Below are positions 8,790 through 41,468 of a DNA stretch of 64,000 nt, in pieces. A program made the translations under genes and the position numbers. The stretch's first letter is position 1; each line of letters starts with the position of its first letter. The notes beneath the pieces are model-generated. The model was not told the DNA's origin. It did no database searches and was given only the letters and a program-made list of their open reading frames with translations. Source of the stretch: Diplonema japonicum (taxonomy: Eukaryota; Protista; Euglenozoa: Diplonemea); assembly GCA_964019335.1 (NCBI GenBank), contig OZ025648.1, forward strand, positions 1,054,001 to 1,118,000. The letters are read 5' to 3'.

Positions 8790-8895
8790 ATTAGACTAGA
8801 CTAGATTTTGTTATAGATTATTCTCAATTTCTTTTTTTTTTTCCAATTCTTCCCATTCTTAAACACCCTAACCACAGGAGAGACATGAGAAGTAC

Positions 8896-11800
8896 ATGTT
8901 ACTCTTCTTATTAACATGCTTGGTGATCTGTGTGAGTTGGGATGCAGCAAGTGCTGCTGAAGCGTGCGGTGCAATAACATGGTCGGAGGTTTCAGGGAAC
9001 TGTGTAGGGCCATTGGGAAGTCCCCCGCTGCTGTGTGGAAAGAACGGTCTGTGGCCGTCATCACCTGTCTGTGTCAACGTGCAAGAAGACGGGACGCTGC
9101 AGAGAAGAAGCCCTTACGTCGAGTCGTCGGTGTTTCAGCATGATGTGATCAGGGCACTGTGTTCGTGTTCTTCTGAGTGCGGTGGCTATTATGTAGATGA
9201 TCAGAGCTTGTACTTTGTCGCTGGTAATGCAGCTCCTGCTTTCAGCTGCGCGTCCTTGGGCAAGCCAGAATGTCAGTCCCCCCACTGTCAATGGGACAGC
9301 CTCGGGGGCGTGTGCACCAATGCCACAGAGCAGTGCCCAACCTGTACATGCGTCCTCCAAACAACCACAGCAACCTGCAATCAGGGAAGCCAGGTGGGTG
9401 GCAGATGTGTGTGTAGTTCCTCCGAAGTGTGCCAGGACGGAGCTTGTGTCACGATGGGAGCGTCATCTTTTTCAAGAGCCAACGTCCTATCAGTAGAACG
9501 CAGCGCCGAACCTCTCATGGCCATGGGTGCCTGCAACTTGGAAGCCTGCAAGATGCCAGGCAAATGGCTGGCAGAGTGGACTTCCTTTAGATGCCAGGGA
9601 CCACACACTGCGACTACCATAGTGATACACGACAACAACACAGCAGACGCTTTCAAAGGCGCCGTCCACGCTGCCGCCACTGTCGCCTCATCGGAAATGA
9701 GTTTGGACTGGAGCATCTTCAGAGATGTTCTCTGCCACAGCAACGGGGAAAACATTACCGGGACGCACTACTTTAATGGCAACGCGTGTGGGAACGTGAC
9801 GATTACGAGGCTCGCACACCTTCGTTCTGTCTCAAACTGCATGACAGCACGCAGCATGTGCCCTTTGCACCACCCGTTCATTTCTCAAGCAGGCACCCAT
9901 TGTTGTTCCGTGCCTTGGACGCAAGATTTCTGCAATGCTTCAGCTGTGCTGTGCAAGGATTGGCCCTGCATGTCAAACGCTGACACCTCACGAGCAGCGC
10001 CGTCTGGCGACTACACATTCGTGGGCCACGGTGTGTGCACGTCACAGGGGAACGAAATCAGCAAGTGGGTTGCCATCTTCGACCCGTCGTACACAGACGC
10101 ACACTGCAGAGCAGAATGCGATGCGCGTGCATCATGTGTAGGCTACGAGACGTTAGAGTGGGAAAATGATGTAGTGTGCTCCCTGTTTGAACCCTCCAGT
10201 GGTCCACCGCTTAACAAATTGCTGTGGACATACCATTTGGGCTCTGGTGGCGCCTTCCCTGAGGAGACAATCTCAGTGCTGGCCCTCAACGGCACATGCT
10301 GGAGGAAGTCTTCATACGTTCGCAGACCTTTTGAGGTGATCGAAGGAAGCTGCTCGTTGGGGAACACCTCACTTGTGACAGGCGTTGCAACGGCAGACGC
10401 TTGTAAGGAGAGGTGCGTCACTTCGAATTGCAAAGCTGCGGTGTGGGATGGCAGCTGCAAAGCGGTGCTCGCAGAGCATATCACGATGAACGCAGGTTCC
10501 GACACGTGTTACTTGAAGCGACTCAACATGCGCCTGTCGAAACTTCGCAACCAGTGTTGCAGGTCATCAAGTATGGGCTTCCCGAATGTCAACATGTTCG
10601 CTGGCCCGGGTGGTGGCCCGGCAGCCGGTCCTGGTTCCGGTCCAGCAGCGGGCCCCGGCTCTGGTCCGGCGGCTGGCCCTGGTTCCGGTCCAGCAACAGG
10701 ACCTGGCTCTGGTCCGGCAGCGGGACCCGGTTCCGGTCCGGCAGCAGGTGGTTCTGATCCCTGGGTCAGGTTTGGTGATTGTATAACAACACTAGGGGCT
10801 TGCAAAACGGCATGTTTGGCGAATTCCAGCTGCACTGCGATCGACTACACAGTGATGAGCAACTGCAACGAATGTTACATGAGCACCGAGGACATCCTGC
10901 TTGACATCATGCCGTGCAATACATCCACGTGCTACTTGGTTCAGCCGAACACTTACAAGCACTTACCAGGCCAGAAGGTTTGCCCTAAGGGCATGACCGC
11001 TTTGCTCGATATGGATGAGTGCAAGGAAGCTGCATCCGCGCTTAGTATCGCTTTTACTTTAGAACAGGTGCAGCTGAACAACGGGTACCCCGACGGGTGC
11101 TGGCTAGACTACACCACTAATGAGCTGCACTTCAGCAACAATCCGGGAAGCCTTGACAGTGTGGCGTGTCCTGCTGCAGGCGGCTACTGTTCCGTCTTTT
11201 GCAAAGATGAACCAGCGTCGTTATTCGAGTGGGATGGGTGCTACTATGAGGACACCACGGAGAGGGAGCTACCGGTTGGCCCCATGACAAAGGATGTCTA
11301 CGTGACCCCCGGTGACTGCAACGTAAAATGCGGAGGTTCGAAGTACTTTTCCATCCAGCTGCTTCCGGGAAATAAAACAGAATGTTGGTGCAGTAGTGGA
11401 GAGGAGGTTCCGGGGCTGCGACCAGCCCCTGCGATTTGTGAGCAGCTGTGCTTCCAGCGACGAGGAGATGTCAACGCTCCCATCAACTGCGTTTACCAGG
11501 CACAGAGCCTTCCTTGCTTCACCGAGTTGCATGCTAGAAAGAAATGCGCACCTGGTATTCCTTACCCGGCAACATGGAAGGGCGAGTGCGAAGCTGCATG
11601 TCTTGCCGACCCACAGTGCCTTGCGGTCAACTGGGCTGCTGAGAAGTCGATGAAGTGCGAGCTAGTGAGGAACTGTACAGAGGTTACCGCCGATGTAAGT
11701 GTCGTTGTTTACGAGAGTCAGGGCTGCAGCTTGGGAGATGTGTCTGGCAGTGCTAGAGACAAGGCGCCCTTCCCGTATTTACTGGAAAGTGAAGGCGGTG

Positions 11801-14800
11801 GTGCATGCGAGAAATTTCCATTCAGCCCTACTCTATCGAGCCTTTTGGGATACTGCAACTTCCCAGTCACACAACCCGGCAGGAGCTGCATCCAAATAGC
11901 AGTTCCAACACCTGGTATAGCAGCGCCTTTCGACTTGGATGGGACTTGTTTGTGCAGCAACAATGCGGGGACGAACCTCGGCGAATGCAAACTAGATGGA
12001 TACTGCCATAGTACTGTTGTTGCGGCACCCGAGGTCACCGCTCTGGTCCCGCAGCCATTGCGTGCCAACGACGTGATCGTGGGAGAGTACCTAGGAGGTG
12101 TCGGTGCCTGCCTGGACAAGCGTGGCCACACGTTCATTACGTATGACATCGATCTTGTTGTGCTAGATGCGACATACAAGGGTGACGAGTACTGGTTGGG
12201 TATTTGTAAGAACATGGTGGCTGACCTTGCCCAGGACTCCTGTGTTGTTGCGGGGTTCCAGTTTTCAGCCGCAGTACCTGAGCTCCCGACATGCCTCATC
12301 CTGACTACTGCCGTTGACGAAAGCATCTCTGCCAGTAGTTTTTTGGAGACGCAACCTGATGTGGTAAGCAATGACTATCCTGCGCAACGCGACGGACAGG
12401 AGAACGTGTACTGCTACATTTACACAGGAGGGCGGTGTTCAGCTGCTGATGGATGTGGAGGGTGCAGTGAGAACTGCACGCTGGTGGACAACCTCTGCAT
12501 GGCCGAAGGTTACGTTTGTAACTCTACCTGCAGCAGCTCGCCCTTTGACACTGTGTGCGACGCTGGGACACTGTCACGTCTAGGACTTAAGGCTAATCCC
12601 GAGTCCCAGTGGCTTGGCCCTGACAGGACCCTGACATACAACACCACTTCCCAGGAGGGTGAAGCAAGGAACTACGACTTCGTTGTGCTCCAAGCAGGAT
12701 ATGACGATTGTTCCCAGGCTGGTCTGCATCTGATTGACAGCGAAGCAGATTGCAAGCGGGCATTGTGCTCTGCCTTCAATGTTTCGTGGTTGCCGTCTAT
12801 TGCTCGGGACAACAGCAGCTTGCCGTCGGGGTGTGTTGTAAGTTGCACTGACCTCAGCGACTGTCCCTTCTATGCCTGGTTCAACGTACGCAACCATTCT
12901 GAAGTAAGTTGCAAGGACTTTGGGAAGTGCCTGTGTAAGAGGGATAGAGGTCCAACACTCACCGCCAGCCCTATGTGCACCGTAAATACTGGGAATGAGT
13001 ATTTTATCCAGAATTATGGTCCTGGGTGCGGGACGACAGATCTGGCTGGTATCACCGCGTCTGAGGTGATGGACATCAGCACCGAAGAAGAGTGTCGACA
13101 AGCAGCTTGCCAACTTCTTCAGATTGAAATCGGCCCTGGTGCTATGAACCACCTGGGAGCGCACCCGATTCACGACAGCTCGGAGGTGAGACCTCTATAC
13201 AGCGGGAAGTACAACGGGTCGGTGACTGTCAGCGCGACGCAGCACTGGCCGGGTGGATGCTCTGTCCAGCTGGACACGCAGTCTAAAGCGTTTGCTGTGT
13301 GGTTCAACCCGCGGAATACGTGCCCAGTGGTGCTTCAGCAACAAATGGACTGCAGTGCTACTAGTGGGTGTGGCTTAAATGCCCATGGCAAATGTAGTGC
13401 AGTTCATGAAGGGTTCAGTTTATGCACGAAGAATGCTCCATGCTTGTGCAAGCGGGACATACTGGCTGGTCGACCCGACCCAGGCTCGAACACACCTGTA
13501 ACACATGAGCCGTGCGAGCTGCACACGGACATCTGGGCATCTGGTGTTGCCAAGACATGTGACCCTTGTGACAGCTCTACTGACATTTCTATTCAGTGTG
13601 GCACAGATGACGGTGTAACACCTGACGAGGAACTGAGCGTCAGCCTCACCTCTGGCGAAACAAAAACCTTTATCTTCAACAGCTATGCAGACCCCGAAAA
13701 CTACATGGTTGTCAAAAAGCACTTCGTGAAAGGGAAGGTGACGTTGGGTGTCATGGTGGGCGATGAGCCTGACCACGACCTCACGAGGCCCCAGCGGGAG
13801 AACAATGTCGTGTGGTACCACTGCAGGTCGGAGCCGGGGCTTGAGTCGGGCACGAATGTTTGCAAGCTTAAGGCGTGCGGTCCCTTTTCAGTGTTGTTGG
13901 CTGCGCAGCAGTCTGATGCAGAGGTGAAATTGTCCATTTGCTTCCCGAAGAGGCCCTGCTGCAAGACGCCGAATGGGAGATGCGCCTTCGAACAACCGAG
14001 TCGCACGCTGGAGTTTGGCACTTCGTCTGTAGTGGTGCCTTCCGTGAAATGTGTTTGCAACGGGAACTTCGCTGGTGCGGAGTGCGACAGATGTCAGAAG
14101 GGACATTTCCCTGAGCCCTACAGCGGTTCAGAGGTGCCCGCCTGCTCGCTGAAGTGTGCGCAGTGTGGCAGTGTTCCATGTGGTGTGTATGATCAGGACC
14201 TGGGTGTGTGTGTGTGCGAAGGGAGCCTGAGTGGGATCACATGCGAGGACAGCTGCCAGCAAGGATACTTCGGGATCTTCTGCAACGAGACTTACACACC
14301 ACTGGAGACCACTCTTGTTCGGTCCTTCACAAACACTGTCACGTCCTTTGTCCCGCCTCCATGGGCTATTGTGTCAAAGTCAAAGCTCGTTGTGACCCTC
14401 AAGAGCAGCGGGCTCAGCAGCGTGAAGTCATTCCGCCTAACTGCAAGGGCACAGCTCACCTATGACGCACCACAAGCCTCCACTGTTGTTAGCCCTCTGG
14501 CGCAGGACAGCATCGACGCTGCGTATTATGGTCCTAGCCCAACGAGCAGGTCGAGCTACATGGAACCCAAGCTCCACATTCTGAGGGGGGACACAGTTTA
14601 CGTTTATACTGTGAGCAATGGTAACTTCACCTTGGAGAGCTCGCAGCTAATCTCCGCTTATTACTCCTCCATGAGCATACATGTGTGCGAGGAGGTGTTC
14701 GGCACGAACTATGCTCGTGACTATGACGCAGCGTTCTTCTTGCAGGATCTAGAGATCGACAAGAATGGGGCGCCCTCAAACATGGAGATTACGCCGAATG

Positions 14801-17800
14801 ACTGGCTGGTCTTTGTCAAAGACAATAAATTCTGCGCGGCCACAGGGTCAGAGAGGAAGTTCTCAGTGGAGGGTGCGACCGCCATACAGAACTTGCTTAA
14901 TCTACAGACGGGTAGTGGCACGAACAAGTTTAATGCCGACTACGACTGCGATACATGTAGCAGCAAATGGGACACTGTGGCAGCTGCACCGTATGAAGGG
15001 AAAACAGCCATAGTGCTTGTGCAGGGTGAGAAGGTTCGGATTTTGAGCAGGCTAATTGATTTGTGCTGCACCGATGACGAGTGCATGTGTGCTGCGCAGA
15101 CCTCATCGACGTTCAACAGCAAGTTCACCGACACCACTTACTCGGCGCTCTACGGCACCAAGGTGAAGGGGAAGTTGAGGGCTGTGGCCGTTGATTATCT
15201 GCGAAGAGACGGCGACGCCTTCCCGTCCCTTGTGTTCGGTGAATTCAGCACCCTCATCACATACAGAGGGAATGCATCTCTAGTTGCGACTGGCACCATC
15301 CTAAGTGGCATGGAGCTGCCTGCCTCCTTGGAGATCAAGTCGGGCAACACATACAACGCAGCCACACTTGAGGTCGGTGCATCTGTTGTGAGCGGTGCCA
15401 AGTCCCTGCAATACACAATCATCGTCAAAGACTCGCGGGGCGTGACTATTGCTCTCGACAACGATGCCATCGTTCCTGTTCTCTTGGAGTGCGGGCTGCC
15501 TCTCACAGCTGCACAGAAGCAGGCTGTTACCACTCTCTCTGCTGTGTCGCCTTCCGATGGTGCACCCCTAGACACCTTCATTATAAATGAGGAAGACTGT
15601 GTGCCTGCAACTGGTGACAAGACATTGGTTGGCAGCAGTTCAAAAGGTGTGTTTGCTGAAGAGGAGTCCAAGAAGGAGTTCGCCTTTGACCACTTGGCGA
15701 TCAGCAAGGAGGGCAGGTACCGCATTGTGTTCCAGCACCCGAAGTCAGGCCTCCATGTGATGTCCGGCATAATCCAGGTGAGCGCAACGGACTGCTATTC
15801 GCCGGACTTGTGGGAAGGCGCTAGTGAGTGTGACAGGAACTGTCTTGCAGAAACAGCCACCTCGGGTCTTCATGTTAGATGCACTTTGGACTTCTCCGCA
15901 AACATGAACTGGGCGCAGTTGAGCATCAGTACAGAAGGGTTCGTGACTCTCGATGTTGGACTGCAGATAGTGCAGCCGTGCTGCGAAGGTAACGGGCTCT
16001 GCTGCAACGGGAACATCGACTGTGACAAGCATGCGCCCAGCGTGCAATATTCCGATGGCTATCGTTGCAAGTGTCTCGCGGACGCTGGGTTAGGGTATTG
16101 GGACCAGAGGAACCACTCGCACTGTAAGTACTGCAAGCCTGGATTCGCAGGCTCTCAGTGTACACGATACACTGGCAGCACGCAGGTGGAGAAGGTGCTC
16201 GATAACACAATGGAGTCAGGAGGAACCGAGACTTATGTCGTTCCTGTGGCTCCCGAGACGCCTTTTTCTGTTGAAATTAACAGCACAGTGGGCGATGCTG
16301 ATGTCCTCATAGGGTTTGGGAGCTGCCCCGGCCAGGGACTCATCACAAGCAAAACTGTTTTGGTTGAAGGAGAGTTAGCCGTGCCATGCAACGGCCTTGG
16401 CACGTGCAAATTCCATGACACTTCGGCGCCCTACTGCGACTGCTTCGCTGGTCAGTGGGACGCAGACTGCAGCAAGGAGTGCTGCAGAAGAAACGGTGCA
16501 TGTGATGGTTCCCTCGGCACAGGATGCCAGTGTTTCAACGATTCCGATAGAGGGTTTTGGGGGAAAGCGGACACCTTCTGCGTGGGAGGGGTTTGCAGCG
16601 ATCTTGGAGGTGCTGACAAAATCCCAGTCGATCAGTGCTTGTTCGCAAATGCGTACACACCGTACCAGTCATGTCGCGAAAGTGCCATAAGCGGCAGCAA
16701 CCTACTTCCCTTCCGTGCATGGATGTCGTGGCGCAACCTTACAGGTGTCACGAAGGACAGCATCACCTACGGTGCTATTGTGTACGAGGAAGACGACGCC
16801 GAGGACTGTTCGGGACAGCAAACTGTGCGTGTCTATGCAACTGACGATAGCAATGCTCGTGAATACAACCCCCGCGACCGATGGATCCCGCGGGGTGTAA
16901 CCCCTTGCAATGTCGCACAGACCCGATCGACGTTCATCATTGGGACACCGAACTGTGGACCTGAAGCCACATGGGACGAAGGGAAAAAGATGTGCAGCTG
17001 CGACTCTCCTTTGGTGTGTGCTGTTGGAAAATGTGTGCAGAGTGAAGGCACATGTGGGTCGCCGTCTCAAAACTGTACTGCTCCGTGGGGTTGGGGTCCT
17101 AACCCAAAGATGATCAATCATGGAGGAGCGTGCAGGTGCGTTACCAGTCAAGCACCGAACGACGAACTTGGCGAGTGGGTCTGTGAGAATAGTGCGTGTC
17201 TGGAAAGCGTCCAAGATTTATCATACAACTGGACAGAAGCCGACTTCGAAGGATTCACACACAGCGACATCACCATGGGCCGGGAAGAGGCCCAGCTGCA
17301 GTGGACAAGCGTCAACTCCAAAAGCAGGTTCTTCTACGAAGTGACAGCTTTCAAGCAGAGCGTGCCTCGTTTAGGGAACAAGCGTGTTATCGACATCACA
17401 GACTGGCTCCAGAGATATACCACAAACCTTAAGACCGCAAACTTTGACCTAAGTTTTGTGCTGGTGACTGAGGATGTTGGTAAGTGTATTCCTACGTCCG
17501 TCGGGCCGCCCTCCCTTGTGCTGAAAACGTACGGGAATAGGCAGCCTTCGAGGTTATTCTTCTCGACAGAGGTCACGGAACTGACAACGAAGCAAGGTGG
17601 CCATCCATTCTACTCGCTTGTCACTTCTAACTCTGCTCAGCACGTAGATGACATCTTTGCACCCGCGCCCGTCAAATCTGCGGAACATACACGATACGTG
17701 CAGCGCTATGCGACTACCGCCACATACAGGCCTGAGAAGAGTGATGCGTGCGGCGAGTTTTCTAACAATTCCCTGTCTTGCGGTTGCGGGAAATTAGCCA

Positions 17801-20800
17801 ACGACACCAGTGAGGGAGGGAGGTGTAACTGCCCCGAGGACACTCTGTTCCAGGACCCTACTGACTTCGTTCAGATTGGCGAACATATGTTCTTCCTTGC
17901 TATCACAGACTGGGAGGGTTCTCCTAAGGACGCTTCTGCCCCTTGCGATGGCGACAGAACCGCTGGGATTTTCCAAGGCCCACGTGAGTTGTACTATACT
18001 AAGGGGATGCCTAAGAGCGCTGTTGGTGATGTCTCTGAGGCCACGTCCTCAAACACTCGCCATGGATCGGGGGCGTACCCCATGCTCTCGTCTCAATACA
18101 CTGAGGCTGAAATGCGGCAAAGCATGCTTGGCATACGTGTTTTCACGAGGGCGAAGGAGCTGACCAAGATGCCGAATCCTGACTGCGCACCCACCGCAAC
18201 CGCGCGGTGCCCTGCCGATTCGTACCATGATGAAATACTGGTGTACGTGAGCGTGGACAGGGGGGGCGATTCAGTCGTTGTGTCGAAAGATGTCACAAAG
18301 CAGTCTAAGATACAGTCCGACCTGCTCCCGAAGCTGTGGCGCTTGAAGCTCCATAAGTCGACAGTGCCCTCTTCGCAAGCGGAGCTTATCGCGAACGACG
18401 TTATGTTCCCTTCTTATGTGACGACGGTGCCCATTGTGAACACGGCCGTGTTGAAGCATAAGCAGACTATGCTGCTGTTCCTAGCGCAGGGTAAGTTCAC
18501 TGCAGCGGACGATGACTTCTCACCGTTAGGAAAATCGTACGGAGAGGGGGGCAAGACCAGCAACCACCAGTATCTAGCGGCCACGAGGCTGTCCGTTTAT
18601 GCATCAGACGGGTCGCCTGGGAACGCAATTCTAGTGGTCGATGCCGTTGCAGACAATGTGCCTACCTGTGTGCACGGGCAGGGACACCCCGGGTTCGTTT
18701 TCTTCAAGGGTTTTATCTACTTCTACTTCGACAACGGCGACAAGGGAATGCAGTTGTACAAGTGGGACACAGAGAACCAAAATCTCAAGGCAACCGTAGT
18801 GCAGCTCCAGATTATGAGAGAGACAGGCGAGATAGAAACACTCCGTCCTGTAATACCCCCAACACATAAAGGATACTTCCGGCCGGTGGTCGCTAAAAAC
18901 AACCTGCTGCTTTCGTTAGGCTCGTCAAACAACGGATCATGGGAGACCACCAGCGCGGGGGGCTGTCTACAGCTTAAACAGTGCGGGTTGAAAGTCCACA
19001 CGTACCAAAAGAGCTTTGCCTGTGTGAGGGAAGAGATTGGTGCCGTTGAGATGTGGTGGTGGAATGGTGACGAAACACCACAACCAAAAGGAGCGAACCT
19101 GGGAGTCGTAAGCGGAAGCGAAGAACCTGCAACTGATCCAAAATGGGTCCACAAGACGAAGAAAGGTGTGTTTTGGGTGTCACATTATGGTGGGATGAGT
19201 AATATTGGGGTATTCCTGAACGAAAGTGTAAACGGAACAACCTACCCAACGCCGCAGTACGTATCCCAGGAGAGGCAGGCATTGTGGTTCGCGCCGTACA
19301 GGTCATTCGTTGGAACAAATGCTACCCCAGAGGCGACCCTGGTGTGGAACACCGATACACCCGCTGAAATGTACGGTTTTACCAATTGGGGGGACGAGGT
19401 ATACTTCTGGAGCTACGACCCTGACGTCCTGCGTGATGTATACAACGACCTTGACAACACGAACAGCACATGCTTCCCCCCAGGTAGGCTTCAGGATGTG
19501 CTCTATAAGTCAGGAACGGACATGAAGTTCACGAAAGTGATGAGTGGTGCAAACGTCCCTGCCTATGCTGGATGCAGAAGAAAGCTCTACAAAATGCCCG
19601 ACTCCGGCGACAGCCCCCCTGTGGAGGTCATGGAGGGGTCACCAAACGATGGTCTCGGCGTGCCGAAGGTGCAGTGCTGCGGCGACAACTACGACACCGA
19701 CGTTGACTCCACCGGCTGGCCGGGTGGTTTTTCAATGAGCGACCCTGGGGGCCTTCAAGCTGGTAGGTCATGCAACTACGGCACAGACCCCGACTGTAGA
19801 CCTCACGACCCTGAACTGAACGACACAGTACTGCCTAAGGGCTGCTTTTCGTGCTACCTGCCGCGTACGTACCCCCCCTTGGACGCGGTGTCTGACTCGC
19901 TTGATTTCTTGTATCCCAACTACATGAGTGCCACAAACGAGAAATATTCCACGAACTACTCGTGGAGCAGACCCAACACAGGGTGGTGGTTTACGGGCTT
20001 CCAGAGCATATGGTTGGATGAAAGGGTGGGGAGAGCTGCCGGAGAAGCTGTCGATGCAAACGGTGCATCATCGAACAACCACATCCGCGGAGGGGAACTG
20101 TATCGTCCTGGAGGGTTTGCGTGGAGAGAGCACTGGCCGCGCGTGATGGCTGCGTGGGAGGAAGTGCCTACTGTTATACATGACGACTGTGAGGACTGTC
20201 GGAAGGGATATTATGGTCCGAAGTGTTCGATACAATGCCCAGTGAGCGAAAACTCAAATCATTGCCCCGGTGTACAAACGGAAGTAGAATGCCACTCAAC
20301 TTCGCTGTGTCTGTGGGACGACGGTGCTTGCAGGGCTGCTCCGTGCAGTGGCTTCCCATGTGCTGATGGTGTCTTTGGGAATGGCACGTGCATCTGCCCG
20401 GGTCTGGGACACAGCTGCGCCAACACAGTGGCAGTTGACAGCACGTATGTCTCTGTGGCTGCTGATGCACCCTTTGGGGTGTACTCTGACTGCGAGCAGT
20501 GCGCAGATAACGACTGCATAGTAAACGGTGTTCCTTATTGTGGACGGCCTGACAACGGTACGTGCACATCTGAGTGCGGTATACACAACAACGAGCCTTG
20601 CTGTGGTCGCAGCCCCGAGCCCATGAAGGTGTCCAGCAGAGACTGGATTGTGCTGCGCTTTGATGATGTCAACATCCCCAACAACGCTTCGCTGAGCCTA
20701 CACCTACAGGAGATCGAGAGTGCTCCTTGTACCGCAGCCTCGCGTCTCAAAGTACACTTGATCTCTTCTCTTGCTGACATCGAGGGTAGTGCCACTTTCA

Positions 20801-23800: not shown

Positions 23801-26800
23801 AGTGTTCATGGGTTGCTGGTGCATGTGTGAGAAAGGTAGTGAGCTATCTAAGCTTCACTGGTGGACGGCAGGGCATCGGGACTGTCTCGCTCGACCCTGA
23901 TTTCGGGTACGTGTACTTCTCGGTTGGGTCGATGAACAGGAACATTCCGTCGCTGTTGTACAAGCTGAACGCCATGACGATGGAGGTGGAGCTGAGCAGG
24001 ACGATGAGCTACGGGCATCTTGTGACGGAAGTGGAGGCCGTGGTGGGTAGCTACCTCGACAGGGCCAGGCGTGCGCTGTATGTTCTGACGCATCTGTCGC
24101 GTACCTCAGTCGCCGTTGTCAACGCATACGATGTGACAGGCATCACGCCTAACGTTGCCGATGCCCCCAGTGCCGGTACTAACATTACTGTGTACGGGCA
24201 AGGCTTCACAACGCTGCGGGGCACTTATGAGCCTATCTGCAAAATGGGTACCACTGTCTCCGATGGGTGGTTCGATACAGAAAATGGGAAGACGATCATT
24301 GTCTGCACTGCTGTTGTGCCAGAGTCGTACTCTGCGTGCAACTGGCTTGCATTGGAGGTCTCGATCAACAGGAACGACAATCGATGGACAGAGACAAGTG
24401 CGCTGATCAAAAGAACCAACACCGCCTTGATCCTCTCTCTGGGGACTAAGCTCGAGAACTGGTCCTTCCCGCACCTCGCGACCAACATACCAATGACTCC
24501 CAATGACCCGTTTATCAATCGCGAGGACCTCCTGAAAGCTGCAGAAGACCCAGTGGTCGTACCAGGCCCTATTACTGAGCCTCACACACAGCTGGACTCC
24601 ACTGATCTACGTATCGTGCAGCCCGTGGCAACAGGGCCGTACAACCAGAACGTCACAATCACCGTGAAGGGTGCTGGATTCTTCGAGTCACCTTTTATGA
24701 AGTGCAGGTTTGGGTCCAACATCATCACACCTGGTACCTTTCTCACTGCGATCAGGATGCTGTGCTTCCAGCCCGTGCTGGCTGAACCCCTTGCTGCGGT
24801 GCTGGAGGTCACCCTCGACGGCCAGATCTATTCGAACAGCGGTGTGCGGTACTTCGGTATCGACGACGCCGTTAAAATCGATGCCTTCTTCTGTTCGAAC
24901 GTCACTGGCACGAACCTCGACTGTCTGAACTCTGCCACCTCCACTGTGAAGTCGCAGGCTACAGTCGAGTTGCCCCCTTTGATCGTTTCATTCAGGGACT
25001 CTCTCGGGACATTTGTAGGAGCTGTGTGGACAAGGGAGCAAGTGGGCACAGTCACCATCACACCCCCCGAAGGCCTCGATTTCGGGACAAGCACACTTAC
25101 GGCGACGCCTATTGAGGGGAGGGCTATCTTCAGTGATCTGAGGGTCCTGCTGCCCAAGTCGGGGGTGTACAGCATTGAGGTTATCTACAAAGACAAGGCT
25201 GGGACCTTTGCCACCACAGTGGACCTTACGGTGGTTGGCGGGGAACCGAAGAAGGTCATCATGCACGTGTCGCCTTCGAGCTTCTCGAACAATCGTGGAA
25301 AGCTCACGACACAGCCGAAGATCAAGATCGTCGATGCAGCTGAAAACCCTGTGCTTGACAGCAACTACAATATTGTGGCGGCACTGGGTGGGGTTCCTGA
25401 AGAGCTGCAAGACACGGAAGGCAACAGCCTAATCGGGATCAAGGATAACATCGCGCGTCGTGGTGGGGGTGACAGCTATGATTTCACAGATCTGGAGATC
25501 CATTCACTGCCGGGGATATCCATCAGCGGGAGGGAGCTGCAGTTTGCACAAAGAAGCTACAACACATACGATCAGCTCGACTTCGTGCTCACGTTCACAG
25601 CGTACTTCAACAATGTGAGGGTCAACACTCTTAACCAGCTGTCGGCCACCATACACCTTGTTGACTGTTCTGCTGAGAACATTGGGAATTCCAAGCTTGC
25701 GTGGATCGAACCCGAAGAGCTCCCTACAGTGACGGGCACAACCCTTACCATCAAGGGGTGGGAATACCGGGACCTAGGGTCGTATGGGAGCTATAGGTGC
25801 CAGTTCCGCGATGCGAACAGTGGCACTTTTGTGACATCGTTGGAAGCCACCTTCTTGGACTCATGTTCCATAAGCTGCACGCCGCCCGCTTCCCTCCGTG
25901 ATGCGCCAGGAATGTACTTGGTGCAGCCTGCGTTGTGCTGCCGCAACAATTTGGGAGATCTGGACTGTCCTACCACTGCGGCGGTGGGCCAGAACTGTTT
26001 CGAAACAGGGCAGACGCTGACAGCCTTTAACGAGTCATCGTTGAAGATCGATACTTATTTCAAGTATGTGGGCCCTGGCACGCAGATAAAACTCTGGAAC
26101 CTTGTATCTGCTCTCCCGGCTCCTGCTTTCGAGTACCACCCGTACTCCGATGCGCTGGGGCTACAGACCACCGTGTCGCAGAAGCTTCAGGTGAATGCTT
26201 CGAAGTCTAACGGTGTGCGGAAGTCGCTGGCAGCGAACTACATTATGAACCAGTTCAACAGATCAGACTTCGTGTACCAGCTGAATATGTACTCGGAGAC
26301 CATCGCGAACAAGGAGACCGTTCTGCGTAGCAGCGCAGAAGTAACGATTGCGGGACAGGATTTCTGGACGTCGAACGACTGGCAACTCGACTCATCTGTG
26401 CAGCTCTTACAAACTGATCGCCCTGACACAAGCTTCATAGTGGGTGTGGCCGATTCATCTGTGGGATTGAACAACTGGCAGGGCAGCTGGGTCTCTGACC
26501 AAGACTACATGCGGAACGGCGTGCCTAGCGAGGCCTCTATCACGATGGAGATTATCCCAAAGCTCACCTACTCCGATGCCACTGGTGAGTCTCAGAGGCA
26601 CTACGCAAGCGTGAAGCAGTCTGAGCAGCGTTTCCACACCGTCTTCACCGTCGACGGCAGCCCCAAGTACAACAGTAAGTACACCCTCGCACTTAATCAC
26701 TCCCTCATTGAGTTTAAGAACGTCAAGCTGGAGTACCCCGCAAAGGGCACCTACACCGTGACCTTCAAGCATGCTGACCCTATCATCCCTATGCTCTCCA

Positions 26801-29800
26801 CCACCATCAAGATCCTCGAGGGGCTGCCCTATAGGGTGGCCTTTGACTCTGTGAACTTTGGTGGCATCAACGGGCTGCCAAGCTCGACGCTTACTAATGC
26901 ACGTGAGCTAACGACGCAGCCCAGATTCAGACTACTTGATGTGTCTGATAACACGCTGCAGGATCTGCCGAGTACCTTTGACATCTTCGTGCGTGTGCAT
27001 AGTGTGTTGCCGTGGCCGAGGTGCCTCCCAGAGGTAACGTGCCCAGCGGGGACAACCTGTCCTGATGCTGACCCGAATACGCCTGGCATGTGGGGTCAGA
27101 TAGATAGGAACAACGCTGGACTATGCACCTGGAACACGCCTCCCCTCACTAACAAAAGCAAAGAGGCGTCTGATGTGCGGCTGCTGTACGACCCGAGGTT
27201 CGATTCAACGGGAATTGCCGCCTATGGTGTCTCTGCCGTCAGTGCGTTAATGAATCTGTGGGCAAAGGAAGGTGAGAACTACAACATAACATTCGACTTC
27301 TATGGTCCAGGCCTAGACCTTTTCGACTACAAAGTACCAGCACTATCGGTACCGAAGCTGATCACAACCTCGTTTTGCGCTACGCCCTGTCCTTCAGGGC
27401 AGAGGATTTGCCAGTTTGATCCCCCTTCCTTTGCGCATTCGGCGCCGGCTGGGTCGATCGGAGCACCGCTCATCGTGTACGGGGACTACTTCGATTTCGC
27501 GAAAGGGGGCAACACGGATGACAAGCTGAGGATTGAGTTGGCGTACCTCGTGAACCAGACGGCCTTCACGTGTGAGGTAGCAGCGTCCCTGCGGGATCCC
27601 TGCAGCGTGACGACTATTATTCCAGCATGCCATTACCTTTGCTACAATGTGTATTCTCCGCTGCAATACACCGAGCTTGACCGTAAGGCTTGTTGTGCTA
27701 CAGGTTTCAAGAACGACAAGATCACGGCATGTGAACCGACAGCACCCCTGACTAGAAATGCCTATATCCTGCAGTCGGCCGCTGTATCCTGTACTTCATG
27801 TCTAGCTAGTGCCCTCAACCAACCTGCTACAACTGCAGTAAAAGTCGCGACCTCGTGCCAATCGGGCAGCCAGTGTTCTTCGTCTCTCAATGCTGTTACA
27901 GCAACAATAGGTCCACCCAAGATTGGGCCTCCCGTCCAGCTTGGTGTGAATGAATCCACTTTCAAGATGGGCAGCGTGGACAAAGACAGAGTATCACGGG
28001 AGAGGCTCGACCCCATAGAGATTAAGATCACTTCCAAGGACAGCACGGGGAATGACGTCGAGGCGACAGACACCGTTAGGCGAAGGGTGAGAATCTTCTT
28101 GCAAAAGCAGGTTGGCTCTGGGCTTACCGACTGGAAGGGACCTGACTGCTCGCTTGGCGATTGTTTGCCTCACGCCCATGAAAATCAAAAATTGTGCAGC
28201 AACGCCAGCATCGAGTGTGTGCACTTTGTGAATGCCGACGGCAGCGCAGCAAGTAGCAGTGATGCCGATATGGTGGACGGCACAGCTGTTGTGTATGTTG
28301 TACTGCAAGCTCCGAAAGAACGTACGTTCTTGGTGCAGATCAGAGATATCACTCCTGTAGGCAGCGGGTATGTTGCGCTGCCTTCGTGCGCAGGCCCTTA
28401 CATTCGGAATGGAGTTGACTTAGGACACGGCGCACCGGCTGTGACAAATGAAGGGACTTACAACTACCCCTTCGTCGACAGTGTCAAGTGCTCCGTCTCA
28501 AACTCAGGTGGGTACACCAGTGCCTGGAGTTTCAGGGTACACAAGGGTGCACCGTACCGTCTTGGCTGGGCCACGACGCCGCTAGGCCAGGTTAGGAACG
28601 AGGATAACAATATTGAGTACATTTTGCAGGTGCAAGACTTTGCTGGAAACGTGCTGAATAAAGAAGAAGTGCGAGAAACACCGATTTCTGACTTCATAAA
28701 GGTAGCCGTGAAGGTCACAAGGACGGTACCAGAGCTGCGCAACAACGTGACAGGTACTTTGTTGAGGCAGAGGCGTGACGAGCCGCTCACTGAGGAGAAC
28801 CTGCAGCGTCTCGAAGCCCTTGCGTGCACGTTCGACGTAACGAACGACATCGACAACAACAACGAGATCGAACTGGGTTCTGGGCAGAACCCCGCTCAGA
28901 TCAAGTTCAGCTTCCGCGGCCTTATGATTTGGCACGGGATGAGTTGTGTGCTGTCCTTCAAAGCGATCGAAGATACGACGAACTCCGTACAGAACAGCCT
29001 GGCCAGGAGGCTCAACGAACAAACAGTGCCAGGCGTATCGCAGGTTGTAGTACCCACAAAGTGCTGCGATCCTGGCGCTGATGGAAAATGCAACCAATTT
29101 GCTTACTCGTTCGAGTTTGGGTGCTGGAACCAAGAGCTCAAAAGGGTCATCGAAGGCAGCTCCAACAAGAAATCGACAAAAGGCAGCAGCCTGGCACTCG
29201 TAACAGAGGCAACCCCCTACAGCTGCCTGTACCACTGTGGGACATGCGAGACAGGGATGACTTGCGATGGGACCATCTCACTGGACAACCGCAAGGACTA
29301 CTGGAGGGAGCCTGTCACGTACAGTGCTTTTGAGTGTAAGCCTACGAACTGCATCATCAACGGTTCGGAGCCGGGCTTCAATCTTGATGTCTTAAGACTC
29401 ACCGATGAGCAGCGATCGGGAGTATGTTTTCTTTTTTCTAATTACATTCACGCAACACAATCACAGAGGCAATGTGCAGAAGGCAGGGAAGGACCCTACT
29501 GCGGGGTGTGCATTAGAACCAAATCGGACGCAGCGCAATATGGTTACGCTCGCAGTGAAGGAGGGTGTGCCAAGTGCCCATCACCTGCTGTGAACTACAC
29601 TCTACTAGCTCTCACTGGGCTAGCGCTACTCATCGTTGTGTTGGTGATGGTGCTTGTAAACCTGAACACGGGACCCACGGTGACAGAAACGCCAAAGATT
29701 TCAGTCATGATCAAGATGCTCATGAATCACGTGCAGGTATGATGACCGCTTTCCATGTTGCATCTTTCACAGGTGGCAGCGCTAGCTGGAGACTTTGCAG

Positions 29801-32003
29801 TGAAGTGGGGGTCTCTCCTTGATCAGATATTTGACTACCAGTCCAAGACAGGCCCCACGAATGTGGTGTCTCTGGCCTGTGCTGTGGAGTACGACTACTA
29901 CGCGAAGTTCATCGGGTGGATGCTTCTCCCCATCCTTGTTGTTGTGGTGCCCGGCATGGTGGTCGTGTGCATCGAACTGCGAAGGCGATTCTTCGTAGAC
30001 GAGGACGAAGAGAAGCCGATGAACCCGGAGGTTCCCCCAGAGTGCCAGTCGCCGTATCACTGGATGTACGACTGGTGTGTGGAGGACAGGGACAGGGAAG
30101 AGTTCAGGAACCACCTGGAGAAGCACTCCATGCAGACCGAGCAGCAGAAGAAAAGATGGAAGCTCAACGTTGAAACCCGCAGAGTGGCAAATCCAAAGAA
30201 GGTCCTTACCTCAGTAGAAGAGCTCGCGAGGACAGAGACAACGATCGAGGATGAGTACATCCCCATAAAGGTGCAGCGTGTCATCGTCGATGCCGGGCAT
30301 GAGAAGGACGCCTCGTCGTTCGACGTCTTCTGGGAAACGAACATCGCTCTCGGGACGCATGGGTGCTGGCTGTGCAAGAGGTGCTGTATCATGGAACAGC
30401 TTTTCCCGTCTCCTGGTGTGGGGAGGATCGGTGCTGAAGACCAGATCAAGGAACTGGTCAACAGGAAATGGTATCCTTGCGATTTAGAGGAGCACGAGAT
30501 CACAAAACGCAAGCTGCAGATGCTCTTCAAAGAGGAGTTGCTAGAGGCCACCTTGGCACGTTTCGAGCTCATCGAGAAGATAGACAAGCGGCTTGCGAAA
30601 GGACAGCACACGACAGTGGATGACGTTCAGAAGCTGACGGCAGCGTTGTTCAAAGGAGAGGACTCCGATGTCCACGAGGAGGGTGAAGACTCGGAATCAG
30701 AAGCAGAGACGACAGAGGACAAGCGTCACAGACAGAGAGTCGCCAGGGAACTCCTCGAGAGACGCAAGGCACTGGCAACATCAACCACACCTCCGTTCCC
30801 TGTGGAGCATCACAAGTCGTTCGACTTCCCAGACCTCGAAAACCAAGAGGCGGCGGGGACCTCGATCACCGTCATCAGCGATGGGAACATCGTCTACGGG
30901 CACCAGAAGAGCAACTGCCAAAAGGTCTCCCTGCGTAAGAAGAAGGAAGCCGCGATCATCTTCTTCCTGAAGGAACAAGGAGTATGCCTTTTTATATTTC
31001 ACCGCACGGGCATCAACAAGAAAATACAAAACCACAGACCTCCCTAGGCGCTAATGAAGCCGGCAGTGTGAAGCATGACCGCATGATAGCAGTCCGCCAG
31101 CAGACGCTCGGCAAGGACTCCTTCTGGAAGTACCAACGAACAGACATCATGACGGGCGAAGACCTCGAGTGGCACACTCACGAGGATCCTATCACACCGC
31201 CGAGATCGCCTAAGAGGGGAAGGTGTGGCTTTTTTAGAACAAACAATAAATTTCTTTTTTTTATAGTGTACTGCCTGGCTTCGTGCAGATTCCAATGCAG
31301 AAACCGGAGGAAGAGGAGACCCTTGCCGATCTTCCAGGTTTGATAAGGAGGAGAAAGGGAAACACATCATACAGATTGGTACCTCGAAGCGGAATATCCG
31401 AATCTGATAGACTTTAAGCTCCCGGACAAACAACTATTGCCCGTACCCTCCGATGCCACCGGGCAGTGCGTGGTCTATGATCTGCAGGAACTGGCGAGGT
31501 CCGTGGGGTACAGGGAGCTGTACGCCATGGCAAGACTGCGAAGGATGCGGGATAAGTTCGCCAAGTGGAGGGCAATGGGGTATGATTCCACCCCCCCTTT
31601 TTTTTTCCTCATTTTCTATTTTTTTTAGGATCTCCGAGTCAGACATAAAGACGAAGCTCACGAACCATTCGGACGCAGAGCCAATGGCAGACGGGGGCGG
31701 GGATGATAAAAGTTCACGAAAAATGTCAGTTTGGAGCGAAGTCCGCGGGAGTCTATGGAACGAGATGGACGAGCTCGACACAGAAACACGCAGCAAGAGG
31801 TTCGAAGTGCAGAAGAAGAAGAAAGAACGCCTCGTTGACAAGGACAAACACATGAACGTCTTGGAAACGTGCGGTCTTTGCCACAAAGACTTCGCTGTAT
31901 GGTACTGCCCGCACTGCGATGAGTTTTACTGCGAGCTGTGCGACGGCCTGATGCATCAGTTCGGGGAGGCATCAAAACACATGAGGCTCAAGGTATGGTT
32001 GTT

Positions 32004-32048
<45 letters not shown>

Positions 32049-33296
32049 TTACTTACCTAATATCCACCACACAGCCGCAACCCAAAACATCACCTTTAAC
32101 CGAAGCAGGATTTGAGATTAAAATGCACCTCACAGACATATACATGGTGGCTGTCATCGTGATTATTTTCCTGTGCTACCCATCGCTGATGAAGGAGATC
32201 GCGTTGATGTTAAACTGCACTGAAAGCACGTGCGTCTCGCTCGGGACGTGCCATCGTTTCCTTGAAGAGGACCCGGCTATCGACTGCAGCGAAAGCCCGT
32301 ACCCGACCTTCCAATTTCTCAGCTTGTTCTTCTTCATGATGTACGGCTTTGGGTTCCCGCTAATGGGGTACTTGGTCTTGAGGGCAAGGCGGTACGAATT
32401 GCGTACAAAACAGGTTATGAGCACACTGGGGTTCTTATACTCAGGGTACCGCGAGTCGAAGTACTACTGGGAGATGGTCATTATGTTGCGGAAGATGTTG
32501 ATCGTGTTCATTGTGGTGTTCCTTGCAAGGTACGACAAATATCAGTTGTACTCCGCAATGTGGCTCATCACATTCTTCGTGTTTTTGAACATATTCTTGA
32601 AGCCTTTCAAGTACGCGGTTCTGTGGAGGCTTGAGAACTTGTCGCTCATCTCCATCATGATCACCTTGAACATCGGTTTGCTGTTCTTTGAAGAGCTGTC
32701 CAGTGCGGTGGAGCTCATCGTGATTGTGGGGGCGTTTAGCTTGAACGTGATCGTTTTGTTGGTGTTCTTGATTCACATTCTGAAGGAGCTGCGCACGGAG
32801 GTCTACGAAAGGGTTGACACTGATGGCGATGGTGATTTAACATATCAGGAATTCCAAGATTATTTGTCAATGAAATGGGATGAATCGAAGCCTGACGTTT
32901 TCGTATGCGGGAAAAAAAAAAAAGAAAAAAAAGAAAAAAATCCAGAAAACCCGAGACGAACGCCTCGAAGACGACAAAACAGCGATTCGGAAAAGAAAGT
33001 GGGAGAAGATCGACAAGAAGCAAAGAGAATGCAGGGGGAAACCGAGTAACGGGGTGTACAACACCACGGCGGAGTTCGGGTACTGGATGGAGCACTACAA
33101 AGACAAAGATAAGCGGCGCAACAGGTTTGAGTGGTTTGATGGCTTCAAGGAAAAGCCCAATACGGCTAGGAAGATTAAGGAGAAATGTTTGACAGAACAA
33201 GAAATGCCTGCTTTGTGGCAGCATACTCTTGGGGAACTTGTTGGGGGAAACGGCGACCCACGGGCTGAAGAAGGCGACATTGAGGTACAACGGGGG

Positions 33297-33334
<38 letters not shown>

Positions 33335-33375
33335 TGAATACTGCAGATGGTAGTGCAGATGAGAAGGGTCTGTGA
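8896..33375 (+). CDS. Giant (~8,010 aa) secreted-ectodomain, 9-TM TRP/FLC-like receptor; 10 exons
   Basis: Signal peptide MLLFLLTCLVICVSWDA. Exons inferred from GT-AG introns that keep the frame open: 8896-29421, 29467-29736, 29773-30981, 31038-31222, 31267-31337, 31375-31579, 31629-31992, 32075-32902, 32946-33284, 33334-33375. The last acceptor is ambiguous (AG at 33346 would end the gene at 33388). Ectodomain has PAN/apple, WSC, EGF/laminin-EGF and IPT motifs. CxxGxxGPxCxxC stalk, membrane block LGFLYSGYR..YYWEMVIMLRK, B-box and EF-hand. Confidence 0.85.
10603..10746 (+). repeat. Coding 24-bp tandem repeat, six GPG(S/G)GPA(A/T) units
   Basis: 6 x 24 bp within the giant ORF, with varied synonymous codons. 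Confidence 0.9.
29422..29466 (+). other. In-frame 45-nt spliceosomal intron hidden inside the 6948-aa ORF
   Basis: GTATGT donor, T-tract, CTAAT branch-like motif, CACAG acceptor. Length is a multiple of 3 with no stop; translates as the out-of-context peptide VCFLFSNYIHATQSQ. Confidence 0.7.
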
Positions 33376-34145
33376 AAAAGAAAAGTAAATATTTTTTTTT
33401 TTTATTTCTTCATTTTTTTTTTTTATCTTTTTACTCCCCTCTTCCCCTTCATTAAACGGTATTTAATGACAACACCACCTCCCCCCTTTTTTTTTCTTCT
33501 TGCTTTCTTGGAAAAAAAAAAAGAATTAATGTAGATGCTGCTAACTCTTCTATTTTTTTTGTGTGGTTTTTTATAATCCGCAAGAAAAAAATCCTCGTCT
33601 CAATCAAAACTCTGTTTGTGGGAAGGGGGAAAAAAAAAAGAATGGGAAGAAAACCAAGGATGAAAATGGGGAAAGATACAATTAAGAAGAAGCAAATAAG
33701 TTACAATAACCACCTAAGGTGTGCTATCACTTAAGTCCCCCCCCCCCCCCCCCCCCTTCCTCCCCGTTGCCACCTTTTCTTTTTCTTTTTTTTTTTGCTT
33801 CATCCCACCCTCCCCAAGACGCTTACGTGAAAGGGGGAAGAACAAAGAAAAAAATAAAAAAGAGGAAGTTATCTCTATCTCTCTCTTTTTTTCCCCCACA
33901 AAACAGAAAGAATATCACAAACCCTCCGTTTTTCTTTTCTTCTTTGTCTTCTACCCCCCCCTCAAAAAATCTACCTTTTTTTGATCCAGTATTCCAACAC
34001 CACATAAGTTTTTTTATAAAAACCCGGGGGAAAAAAATAAGAAAAAAGAAGAAAAAAAAAAAACCTGTGTTTTTTTTTTTTTTTTCATACTTTCCTAAGG
34101 GAAAAAAAAAAAGAAAAAAAAAAGGGGGCGGGTGGGGGGGGGGGA

Positions 34146-34888: not shown

Positions 34889-34934
<46 letters not shown>

Positions 34935-41417: not shown

Positions 41418-41467
<50 letters not shown>

Positions 41468-41468
41468 A

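What the first reader, a model, noticed from the sequence alone, without database searches (positions are those of the whole stretch)
8896..33375. An ~8,000-aa giant surface receptor-channel split across several ORFs in the ORF track
Seen: nine short GT-AG introns join the 6948-aa ORF to the downstream ORF fragments in one open frame of 24,039 nt (~8,012 aa). Architecture: signal peptide, ~6,880-aa Cys-rich mosaic ectodomain, CxxGxxGPxCxxC stalk, nine TM helices and a cytosolic EF-hand. Known: the LGFLY..YR...YYWE....RK block is characteristic of fungal TRP/FLC (Pkd2-like) membrane domains and of poorly studied protist 'GPCR-related' proteins. Inference: a polycystin- or adhesion-GPCR-analogous sensor that couples glycan or prey recognition, or mechanical load, to Ca2+ signalling. 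This is the strongest candidate for an undescribed system in the window.
Basis: partly seen in the sequence, partly recalled or inferred. Interest (0 to 1): 0.8.

Follow-up and report, generated by a model that had tools for sequence, protein, structure and literature searches.

The report
Giant diplonemid CRMP-type surface sensor
One spliced gene of a diplonemid protist encodes an 8,012-residue protein whose predicted nine-helix membrane part is related to the CRMP invasion proteins of Toxoplasma; it likely acts as a surface contact sensor, and it adds zinc-finger and predicted calcium-binding parts inside the cell.

Summary
The gene model is right. Nine GT-AG introns give 24,039 nt and 8,012 aa. 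One 24,356-nt spliced contig starts with a spliced-leader tail and crosses all nine junctions. Colinear giant homologues occur in other diplonemids. The interpretation needs changing. The stalk plus nine-helix core is that of the CRMPs of Toxoplasma, Plasmodium and ciliates: 12 of 12 near-invariant residues appear in TgCRMPa (by eye). It resembles fungal Pkd2/FLC only weakly (PF06011 below cut-off). No GPS site, TRP box or PDB fold match supports an adhesion GPCR or polycystin. The core is widespread (5,431 clusters), and this scan met it before in Naegleria, Ostreococcus and a marine protist. It holds a B-box, found here only in one clade whose 15 named members are all euglenozoans, and an unclassified Cys/His module seen only in diplonemids. 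A canonical EF-hand follows TM9. Most likely a contact or ligand sensor with Ca2+ feedback; channel activity is untested. New variant of a known kind.

The parts
8878..8895 (+). 5' UTR after the trans-splice acceptor (AG at 8876-8877)
   Evidence: X7 contig starts with a 14-nt leader-like loose end at 8877; pyrimidine tract upstream
8896..29421 (+). Exon 1 coding part (aa 1-6842): predicted signal peptide and nearly all of the ectodomain; no intron
8896..8955 (+). Predicted signal peptide
   Evidence: hydropathy 2.0 over aa 1-19; no signal-peptide predictor run
10330..11703 (+). Distal PAN/apple-like modules (aa ~479-551, 631-667, 896-936) and a WSC-like module (aa 781-853); candidate glycan or protein binding
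   Evidence: Pfam PAN_1 E 0.0017 and 0.027, PAN_2 E 0.0014, WSC E 0.00028, all below curated cut-offs
21451..22365 (+). Main laminin-type EGF cluster (aa ~4186-4490); a further EGF at aa ~1714-1745
   Evidence: Pfam EGF_laminin and EGF_STAB1-2, E 0.0005-0.004, below cut-off; 39 Cys in aa 4251-4500; matches the repeats of Entosiphon P0012
24133..25896 (+). IPT/TIG Ig-like domains (aa ~5080-5129, 5243-5290, 5604-5667)
   Evidence: Pfam TIG 43.3 bits, E 3.8e-11, above cut-off 20.9; single domains
27754..27771 (+). R-x4-L motif (aa 6287-6292) in a variable linker; possible processing site (inference)
   Evidence: present in this linker in 8 of 8 aligned proteins
29233..29595 (+). Membrane-proximal cysteine stalk (aa ~6780-6885, split by intron 1), matching the membrane-proximal part of the CRMP core
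   Evidence: cysteines conserved in 8 of 8; same order of cysteines in TgCRMPa by eye; DUF7630 hits this module in 9 of 14 relatives scanned but not in this protein
29422..29466 (+). Intron 1 (45 nt, in frame, inside the long ORF)
29596..29976 (+). TM1-TM3 (aa ~6886-7000), split by intron 2 (29737-29772), which holds the stop of the 6,948-aa ORF
30043..30495 (+). Unclassified Cys/His module at the start of the cytosolic loop: C7023, H7028, C7130, C7133, C7136, C7137, C7168, H7173; predicted to bind zinc (inference)
   Evidence: conserved in the alignment; HMM finds it in 14 of 169 proteins, the named ones all diplonemid; no Pfam, NCBIfam or Atlas hit
30982..31628 (+). Introns 3-6 with small exons 4-6 (middle of the cytosolic loop)
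   Evidence: four introns at matching positions in L001
31870..31983 (+). B-box zinc finger (aa ~7570-7607) just before TM4
   Evidence: Pfam ANCHR-like_BBOX 27.4 bits, cut-off 27, E 3.6e-6; in the model of homologue P0003, Z 8.7, rmsd 1.5 A over 49 residues to a plant B-box
32129..32785 (+). TM4-TM9 (aa ~7629-7847) with the conserved C, C, G-x-P, F-x3-G, WE-x5-RK, P and E residues
   Evidence: PF06011 18.2 bits, E 0.0012, cut-off 28.5
32798..32872 (+). Single canonical EF-hand (loop D7858-E7869) directly after the TM9 helix
   Evidence: Pfam EF-hand_1 E 1.1e-4, below cut-off; helix-loop-helix in the model; HMM hit in 24 of 33 clade rows
32946..33375 (+). Exons 9-10 (intron 9 at 33285-33333): cytosolic tail and stop codon
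33376..33659 (+). 3' UTR, at least this long
   Evidence: X7 contig ends at 33659

Best explanation
This single spliced gene encodes an 8,012-residue protein with the CRMP-type stalk and predicted nine-helix core, and it likely works as a cell-surface contact or ligand sensor whose output would be tuned from inside by a B-box, a predicted zinc module and a predicted Ca2+-binding EF-hand. Shown: the gene, the spliced contig, conservation across diplonemids, the domain order. Inferred, in order: (1) it enters the secretory pathway and is glycosylated (63 sequons and 356 Cys outside, 1 sequon in the loop); (2) the ~6,880-aa arm of EGF and Ig-like modules holds variable PAN/WSC-like modules far from the membrane, where they meet prey, substrate or another cell; the arm may be cut at the R-x4-L linker; (3) binding or pulling passes through the conserved cysteine stalk to the core, whose buried E, R, K, Q, E and N residues are conserved; (4) the core triggers a local Ca2+-dependent response such as regulated secretion or feeding, as CRMPs do for rhoptries and mucocysts, either by passing ions or through partners; (5) the EF-hand, continuous with TM9, reads the Ca2+ rise and feeds back, and the B-box clusters the protein or recruits partners. 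I put the gene model at about 0.97, homology to the CRMP core at about 0.95, and the sensor role at about 0.6.
For: Gene and transcript. Ectodomain, TM1-9, B-box and tail in one chain in P0010 (7,961 aa), D. papillatum P0011 and P0015, D. ambulator P0017 and Rhynchopus P0009. CRMP link: all 12 invariant or near-invariant residues of my 64-sequence alignment are present in order in TgCRMPa as printed in the supplement of PMC9815656 (by eye, no E-value); spacing is identical from G93 to K140 and differs by 3-4 residues in three loops. That paper defines the core as EGF-like modules plus 9 TMs. TgCRMPa has its N-terminus outside and C-terminus in the cytosol and is cleaved N-terminally; CRMP loss blocks rhoptry and mucocyst discharge (PMC9670195). 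Identity to P0007 is 27-38% over the first 1,500 aa against 40-60% over aa 5001-7000, which fits a variable tip on a conserved base. Conserved polar residues in the helices: E133 96%, R139 90%, K140 95%, Q157 75%, E187 93%, N224 82%. B-box and EF-hand.
Against: No functional data exist for this protein or any euglenozoan relative; function is carried over from alveolates. I had no named CRMP sequence to score, so the CRMP link has no E-value, and no CRMP is in my tree. The ephrin-receptor-like repeats drawn for CRMPs were not detected here. PAN, WSC, EGF, PF06011 and EF-hand hits are all below Pfam cut-offs. The EF loop is degenerate in P0010, P0020 and P0033, so Ca2+ binding is not needed by all members. 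The review passages I saw list extrusomes for D. ambulator, D. japonicum, D. aggregatum and hemistasiids but not for D. papillatum, Rhynchopus, Flectonema or Sulcionema, all of which have relatives of this protein; that weakens an extrusome-specific role. Surface location is untested.
Confidence: 0.6

Rival explanations
1. The nine-helix core is itself a stretch- or tether-gated Ca2+-permeable channel, like fission-yeast Pkd2, with the ectodomain as tether and the EF-hand as a direct Ca2+ gate. This is a sharper form of step 4 of the best explanation.
For: PF06011 matches this core weakly (E 0.0012) and passes the cut-off in relatives P0035 (41.8 bits) and P0040 (38.8 bits). The Atlas top cluster scores 0.94, with PF06011 in 42% of members. 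S. pombe Pkd2 is predicted to have nine helices (bioRxiv 10.1101/2022.08.11.503631, passages) and passed Ca2+ under stretch in vesicles (PMC9727806, abstract). Conserved charged residues in the helices.
Against: No pore was examined; I modelled only TM4-9. No TRP box or S4-type motif in the helices. The CRMP passages I read report no ion flux.
Confidence: 0.22
2. It is a structural adhesin or surface-coat element; the core only anchors it and the cytosolic modules handle trafficking or cytoskeletal attachment.
For: Very long EGF/Ig-like arm, about 875 kDa; several paralogues per species; B-boxes often serve oligomerisation (own knowledge).
Against: A single helix or GPI anchor would do. The buried polar residues and the EF loop are conserved across diplonemids, prokinetoplastids and beyond. 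Relatives put the same core under CUB, laminin-G, beta-helix or phosphate-binding-protein ectodomains, as a receptor family would.
Confidence: 0.1
3. It is a true adhesion GPCR or polycystin-1 relative, cleaved at a GAIN/GPS site and signalling through G proteins or a PKD2 partner.
For: Similar overall plan. PANTHER calls TgCRMPa GPCR-like and HHpred found GAIN-like similarity in Tetrahymena CRMPs (PMC9670195).
Against: No GPS motif within 290 aa before TM1; nine helices, not seven or eleven; no DRY or NPxxY. The same paper says CRMPs are not bona fide GPCRs.
Confidence: 0.04
4. The core is a distant relative of the Hrd1 membrane domain and, with the B-box, works in membrane-protein quality control or ubiquitin-linked turnover.
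For: Hrd1 is the top VIA-align row for both models: Z 9.3, rmsd 5.0 A, 165 aligned; Z 9.1, rmsd 4.5 A, 162 aligned. A zinc finger sits next to the membrane.
Against: Z is under the tool's ~13 mark for helical bundles, identity is 9-10%, Foldseek gives nothing at E<=0.001, there is no RING domain, and a 6,880-aa ectodomain is unexplained.
Confidence: 0.04

Closest known systems
Cysteine repeat modular proteins (TgCRMPa/TGGT1_261080, TgCRMPb/TGGT1_292020, Plasmodium CRMP1-4, Tetrahymena CRMP1/2)
   Same: Large Cys-rich ectodomain, membrane-proximal cysteine stalk, nine-helix core with the same conserved residues (12 of 12 by eye), predicted N-out/C-in topology.
   Different: 8,012 aa; laminin-type EGF, TIG and PAN/WSC-like modules in place of MAR/Kringle/ephrin-like modules; TM3-TM4 loop ~620 aa against about 70 aa in TgCRMPa, with a B-box and a Cys/His module; EF-hand after TM9; euglenozoan host. 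Partner and function untested.
Fungal FLC/Pkd2 'TRP-like' proteins (Pfam PF06011; S. pombe Pkd2)
   Same: Weak profile match over the last four helices (model positions 273-399 of 426); nine predicted helices.
   Different: Below the Pfam cut-off (18.2 against 28.5 bits); Pkd2 has a 147-aa Ig-like domain where this protein has ~6,880 aa; the Pkd2 passages I read mention no B-box or EF-hand.
Adhesion GPCRs and polycystin-1
   Same: Huge modular ectodomain on a multipass anchor; a likely contact or force sensor.
   Different: No GPS motif, different helix count, no significant sequence or fold match. Analogy only.
Diplonema papillatum KAJ9454236.1 ('Laminin subunit alpha') and KAJ9468467.1 ('Teneurin-m')
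   Same: Colinear homologues with the same stalk, nine-helix core, Cys/His module, B-box and EF-hand.
   Different: About 30-45% identical by region. Their database names reflect EGF repeats only and appear to be misannotations.

Membership tests
CRMP-type nine-helix proteins | Nine C-terminal transmembrane helices | tested here: met
   Eight hydropathy segments plus TM2 by homology; TM4-9 helical at pLDDT 93; TM1-3 not modelled
CRMP-type nine-helix proteins | Conserved core residues of the membrane domain | tested here: met
   12 of 12 near-invariant residues of alignment A1 seen in order in TgCRMPa; by eye, no score
CRMP-type nine-helix proteins | Membrane-proximal EGF-like cysteine module before TM1 | tested here: met
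   aa ~6780-6885 conserved in 8 of 8; same cysteine order in TgCRMPa (by eye)
Apicomplexan CRMPA/CRMPB clades (strict sense) | Ephrin-receptor-like cysteine repeats upstream of the stalk | tested here: not met
   No PF07699 hit in 23 overlapping ectodomain pieces at E<=1, though it hits relatives P0040, P0049, P0062
Apicomplexan CRMPA/CRMPB clades (strict sense) | Groups with CRMPA or CRMPB in a tree | not tested
   No named CRMP sequence came back or from the look-ups
CRMP-type nine-helix proteins | Heterodimer through the membrane domains; needed for regulated exocytosis | not testable with these tools
   Needs paralogues from the same genome (none held) and bench work
Fungal FLC/Pkd2 (PF06011) | PF06011 at the curated cut-off | tested here: not met
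   18.2 bits against 28.5, on the exon with TM4-9 only; relatives P0035 and P0040 pass
Fungal FLC/Pkd2 (PF06011) | Stretch-activated Ca2+ permeability | not testable with these tools
   Shown for S. pombe Pkd2 only (PMC9727806 abstract)
Adhesion GPCR / polycystin-1 | GPS motif just before TM1 | tested here: not met
   No C-x-C-x-H-L-T/S, nor any H-L/F/M-T/S, in aa 6601-6890; no GPS or GAIN Pfam hit
Adhesion GPCR / polycystin-1 | 7TM GPCR fold or PKD channel fold | tested here: inconclusive
   No Foldseek match at E<=0.001; PKD1/PKD2 and GPCR rows only at E>3; none in the top 50 of VIA-align for this model; TM1-3 were missing from the model
Canonical TRP channels | TRP box and S1-S6 voltage-sensor-like fold | tested here: inconclusive
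   No TRP-box motif; TRPV1 rows only at E>=1.8 with TM-score about 0.23
B-box zinc finger | Cys/His pattern and fold | tested here: met
   Pfam PF22586 above cut-off; Z 8.7, rmsd 1.5 A, 49 aligned in homologue P0003
EF-hand | 12-residue loop with D1, D3, D5, G6, hydrophobic 8 and E12 between helices | tested here: met
   Loop D7858-E7869 in the sequence, helix-loop-helix in the model; Ca2+ binding itself untested

The most novel reading that the evidence does not exclude
Euglenozoans built a self-contained version of the CRMP/Pkd2 nine-helix sensor: a contact- or force-gated Ca2+-permeable core wired to its own Ca2+ feedback switch (an EF-hand continuing TM9) and to a B-box clustering module, with diplonemids adding a new two-zinc domain in the same loop and an arm of almost 7,000 residues. 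It would be the first member of this family with its signalling output written into the chain, and a route to how CRMPs signal.
Probability: 0.22. Interest if true: 0.8.

Novelty: new variant of a known kind. Interest (0 to 1): 0.5.

Why it matters
How CRMPs turn contact into secretion is open; the papers I read propose signalling but name no output. This subfamily carries recognisable cytosolic modules (B-box, EF-hand) on the same core in free-living, culturable protists, so specific mutations can test a Ca2+ link. It also gives diplonemids, abundant marine heterotrophs with little known sensory biology, a conserved candidate receptor family that databases now label 'laminin' or 'teneurin'. 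The 24-kb message and 8,012-aa chain have transcript support.

Tried and rejected
No genome is held for this window, so paralogues in the same organism were not counted; the window holds no second copy. The run search listed no holder on record as RNA; X7 is taken as RNA-derived from its splicing and leader. Runs X8, X9 and X11 were laid only on 8000-27900, cover it in pieces and say nothing on the junctions. A leader-like loose end at 33510 in X7 lies in low-complexity 3' UTR with no AG acceptor; I treat it as a mis-laid 5' end of another gene. Sequence searches of the PDB: 0 hits for TM4-9 at E<=10; only compositional hits with the profile, best E 0.004; 0 and 2 weak hits for the ectodomain halves. 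Fold searches found no significant match for TM4-9; the Cys/His module was not folded alone, so the whole-model searches barely test it. Atlas: no usable hit for that module. NCBIfam: one chance hit in 10 pieces, so my guess of ELWxxDGT-type propeller repeats near aa 3000-3600 is unsupported. BLASTP of the protein against itself found no internal repeats at E<=0.05. Homodimer prediction of TM4-9 plus EF-hand with Ca2+: no answer, score 0.00, not evidence either way. A search with Entosiphon P0033 to reach named CRMPs returned 5 proteins, none named CRMP. The genome index answered once (3 of 20 aligned genomes matched) and was busy afterwards, so the range in trypanosomatids and Bodo is untested. 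The tree is the quick version; the careful search did not finish. Literature searches with no relevant paper: CRMP + Euglenozoa, 1 unrelated by its listing; five-term CRMP search since 2023, 0; PTHR11319, 0; Diplonema + genome + G protein-coupled + surface protein, 0; CRMP + cryo-EM since 2023, 3 papers, the 1 listed unrelated; diplonemid + B-box, 0. The library lacks most subscription papers, and bioRxiv supplements were not seen.
Full report
1. The observation. The window has a 6,948-aa ORF from the ATG at 8896 and several shorter frames to 33375. Of four runs laid on 26000-34200, X1, X3 and X5 show none of the nine joints, and X7 holds one contig of 24,356 nt that skips all nine introns: six appear in the joint table, three follow from the contig's coordinates. 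The same contig covers 8877-27900 without differences and starts with a 14-nt loose end that I recall as the tail of the euglenozoan spliced leader. The upstream gene lies on separate contigs that end at 8789-8831.

2. Independent support for one chain. A search with aa 4100-6940 returned 7 proteins among 2,872 candidates, five covering 99-100% of the query at 30-42% identity. They include Flectonema neradi (7,777 aa), Rhynchopus euleeides, D. papillatum and an unnamed 7,961-aa protein, P0010, that aligns from aa 636 to 7981 in one piece. Two genomes of the same family each hold at least three matches to TM4-9. L001 has introns at four matching positions and lacks introns 7-9; L002 is open throughout. 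The closest named relatives and the leader make the host a diplonemid (inference); I did not determine the species.

3. Anatomy. A hydrophobic N-terminus; about 6,880 extracellular residues with 356 Cys and 63 sequons; weak PAN and WSC hits at aa 479-936, laminin-type EGF modules, and TIG domains, of which only TIG passes the Pfam cut-off. Much of the arm is unassigned. An R-x4-L motif sits in a variable linker at aa 6287 in 8 of 8 aligned proteins and may be a processing site (inference). Then come the cysteine stalk, TM1-3, a cytosolic loop of 621 aa, TM4-9, an EF-hand and a tail. The TM4-9 model has mean pLDDT 93, with the last helix running into the EF loop.

4. What the core is. TM4-9 matches 5,431 clusters at E<=0.001 and 945 at 1e-10 among 1.84 billion representatives. 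In my alignment of 64 sequences, 12 residues are at least 90% conserved. All 12 occur in order in TgCRMPa as printed in the supplement of PMC9815656 (13 of 34 places shown), with identical spacing from G93 to K140. This comparison is by eye. In passages of that paper the CRMP core is EGF-like modules plus nine helices, predicted to heterodimerise (12 of 19 places). In passages of PMC9670195, CRMP loss blocks rhoptry and mucocyst discharge, TgCRMPa is N-out, C-in and cleaved, and CRMPs are said not to be bona fide GPCRs (12 of 25 places). PF06011 scores 18.2 bits here, below its cut-off, but passes in two relatives. S. pombe Pkd2 is predicted to have nine helices (passages) and passed Ca2+ under stretch in vesicles (abstract). 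No GPS, TRP-box, DRY or NPxxY motif is present, and no solved structure matches significantly; the best row is Hrd1 at Z 9.3, rmsd 5.0 A. Four earlier notes of this scan reach the same family assignment on other DNA; I had written the CRMP reading down before that call, and they are not independent evidence.

5. What is particular here. In a quick tree of TM4-9 from 141 sequences (rows with under 170 aligned residues and four duplicate isoforms left out), this protein falls in a 33-row clade with SH-aLRT 94. A B-box HMM built from 14 close homologues hits 25 of those 33 rows and none of the 108 other rows; five further hits are three isoform duplicates and two proteins not in the tree. Pfam found no B-box in the 8 outside proteins scanned. 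Of 19 clade members looked up, 15 carry a species name and all 15 are euglenozoans: five diplonemid species, Papus, Apiculatamorpha and Entosiphon. The TM3-TM4 loop has a median of 426 aa in the clade (n=18) and 40 aa outside (n=62). The sample is the 150 best hits to this protein plus a few others, so B-boxes in distant branches are not excluded. The fold of the B-box is confirmed in homologue P0003. The loop opens with a module with six conserved Cys and two His, modelled at pLDDT about 60-90, with no family hit; it is found in 14 of 169 proteins, 12 of which built the HMM, and the named ones are all diplonemids. The EF-hand is in 24 of 33 clade rows and also in some outside rows, so it is not exclusive, and it is degenerate in some members.

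6. Mechanism. I favour a surface sensor of the CRMP kind (0.6): a variable binding tip on a long arm, a conserved stalk and core that transduce contact, and cytosolic modules for clustering and Ca2+ feedback. All functional steps are inferred. The channel version (0.22) rests on the Pkd2 link. An extrusome-specific role is less likely, because review passages list extrusomes for only some of the genera that carry the protein; feeding, adhesion or other secretion are open.

7. Verdict. Observation confirmed; interpretation partly supported. It works like a CRMP and carries the CRMP core, but lacks the ephrin-like repeats and is not shown to belong to the CRMPA or CRMPB clades. It is not an adhesion GPCR or polycystin by the features tested. 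Six searches found no paper on euglenozoan members, within a library that lacks most subscription journals. New variant of a known kind; interest 0.5.

Noticed in passing
window 8885-8914: A 9-codon upstream ORF starts 7 nt after the trans-splice site, out of frame with and overlapping the main ATG at 8896; it could dampen translation. The X7 contig shows no difference here.
   Followed up: partly
window 5460-8789: Upstream 1,109-aa frame with a caspase/metacaspase domain (PF00656, E 1.8e-8) and a proline-rich C-terminal half; its stop lies about 90 nt before the splice acceptor of the giant gene.
   Followed up: no
window 51298-54465: 1,055-aa frame with EF-hands, a weak Ion_trans match and a cyclic-nucleotide-binding domain: an EF-hand-bearing CNG/HCN-like channel.
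   Followed up: no
window 34041-34976, 36532-39300, 41412-42944, 54462-56831, 1847-2923: Neighbours match NIPA Mg2+ transporter, EXS, MFS transporter, DnaJ and kelch families; all on the + strand, with no obvious link to the giant gene.
   Followed up: no
P0042 (Entosiphon sulcatum, 1,933 aa): A member of the B-box clade whose ectodomain is four phosphate-binding-protein domains (PF12849, E 2.5e-44), suggesting a small-solute sensor on the same core.
   Followed up: no
P0038 (3,759 aa): A relative outside the clade with an EF-hand and a C-terminal PDZ domain after the core: another cytosolic add-on.
   Followed up: no
P0011, P0015: D. papillatum homologues are annotated 'Laminin subunit alpha' and 'Teneurin-m' although they end in the nine-helix core.
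   Followed up: yes
window 8896-29421 versus 29422-33375: All nine introns lie in the last 4 kb of the gene, after a 20.5-kb intron-free exon; L001 shares four positions and L002 has none in the part seen.
   Followed up: partly
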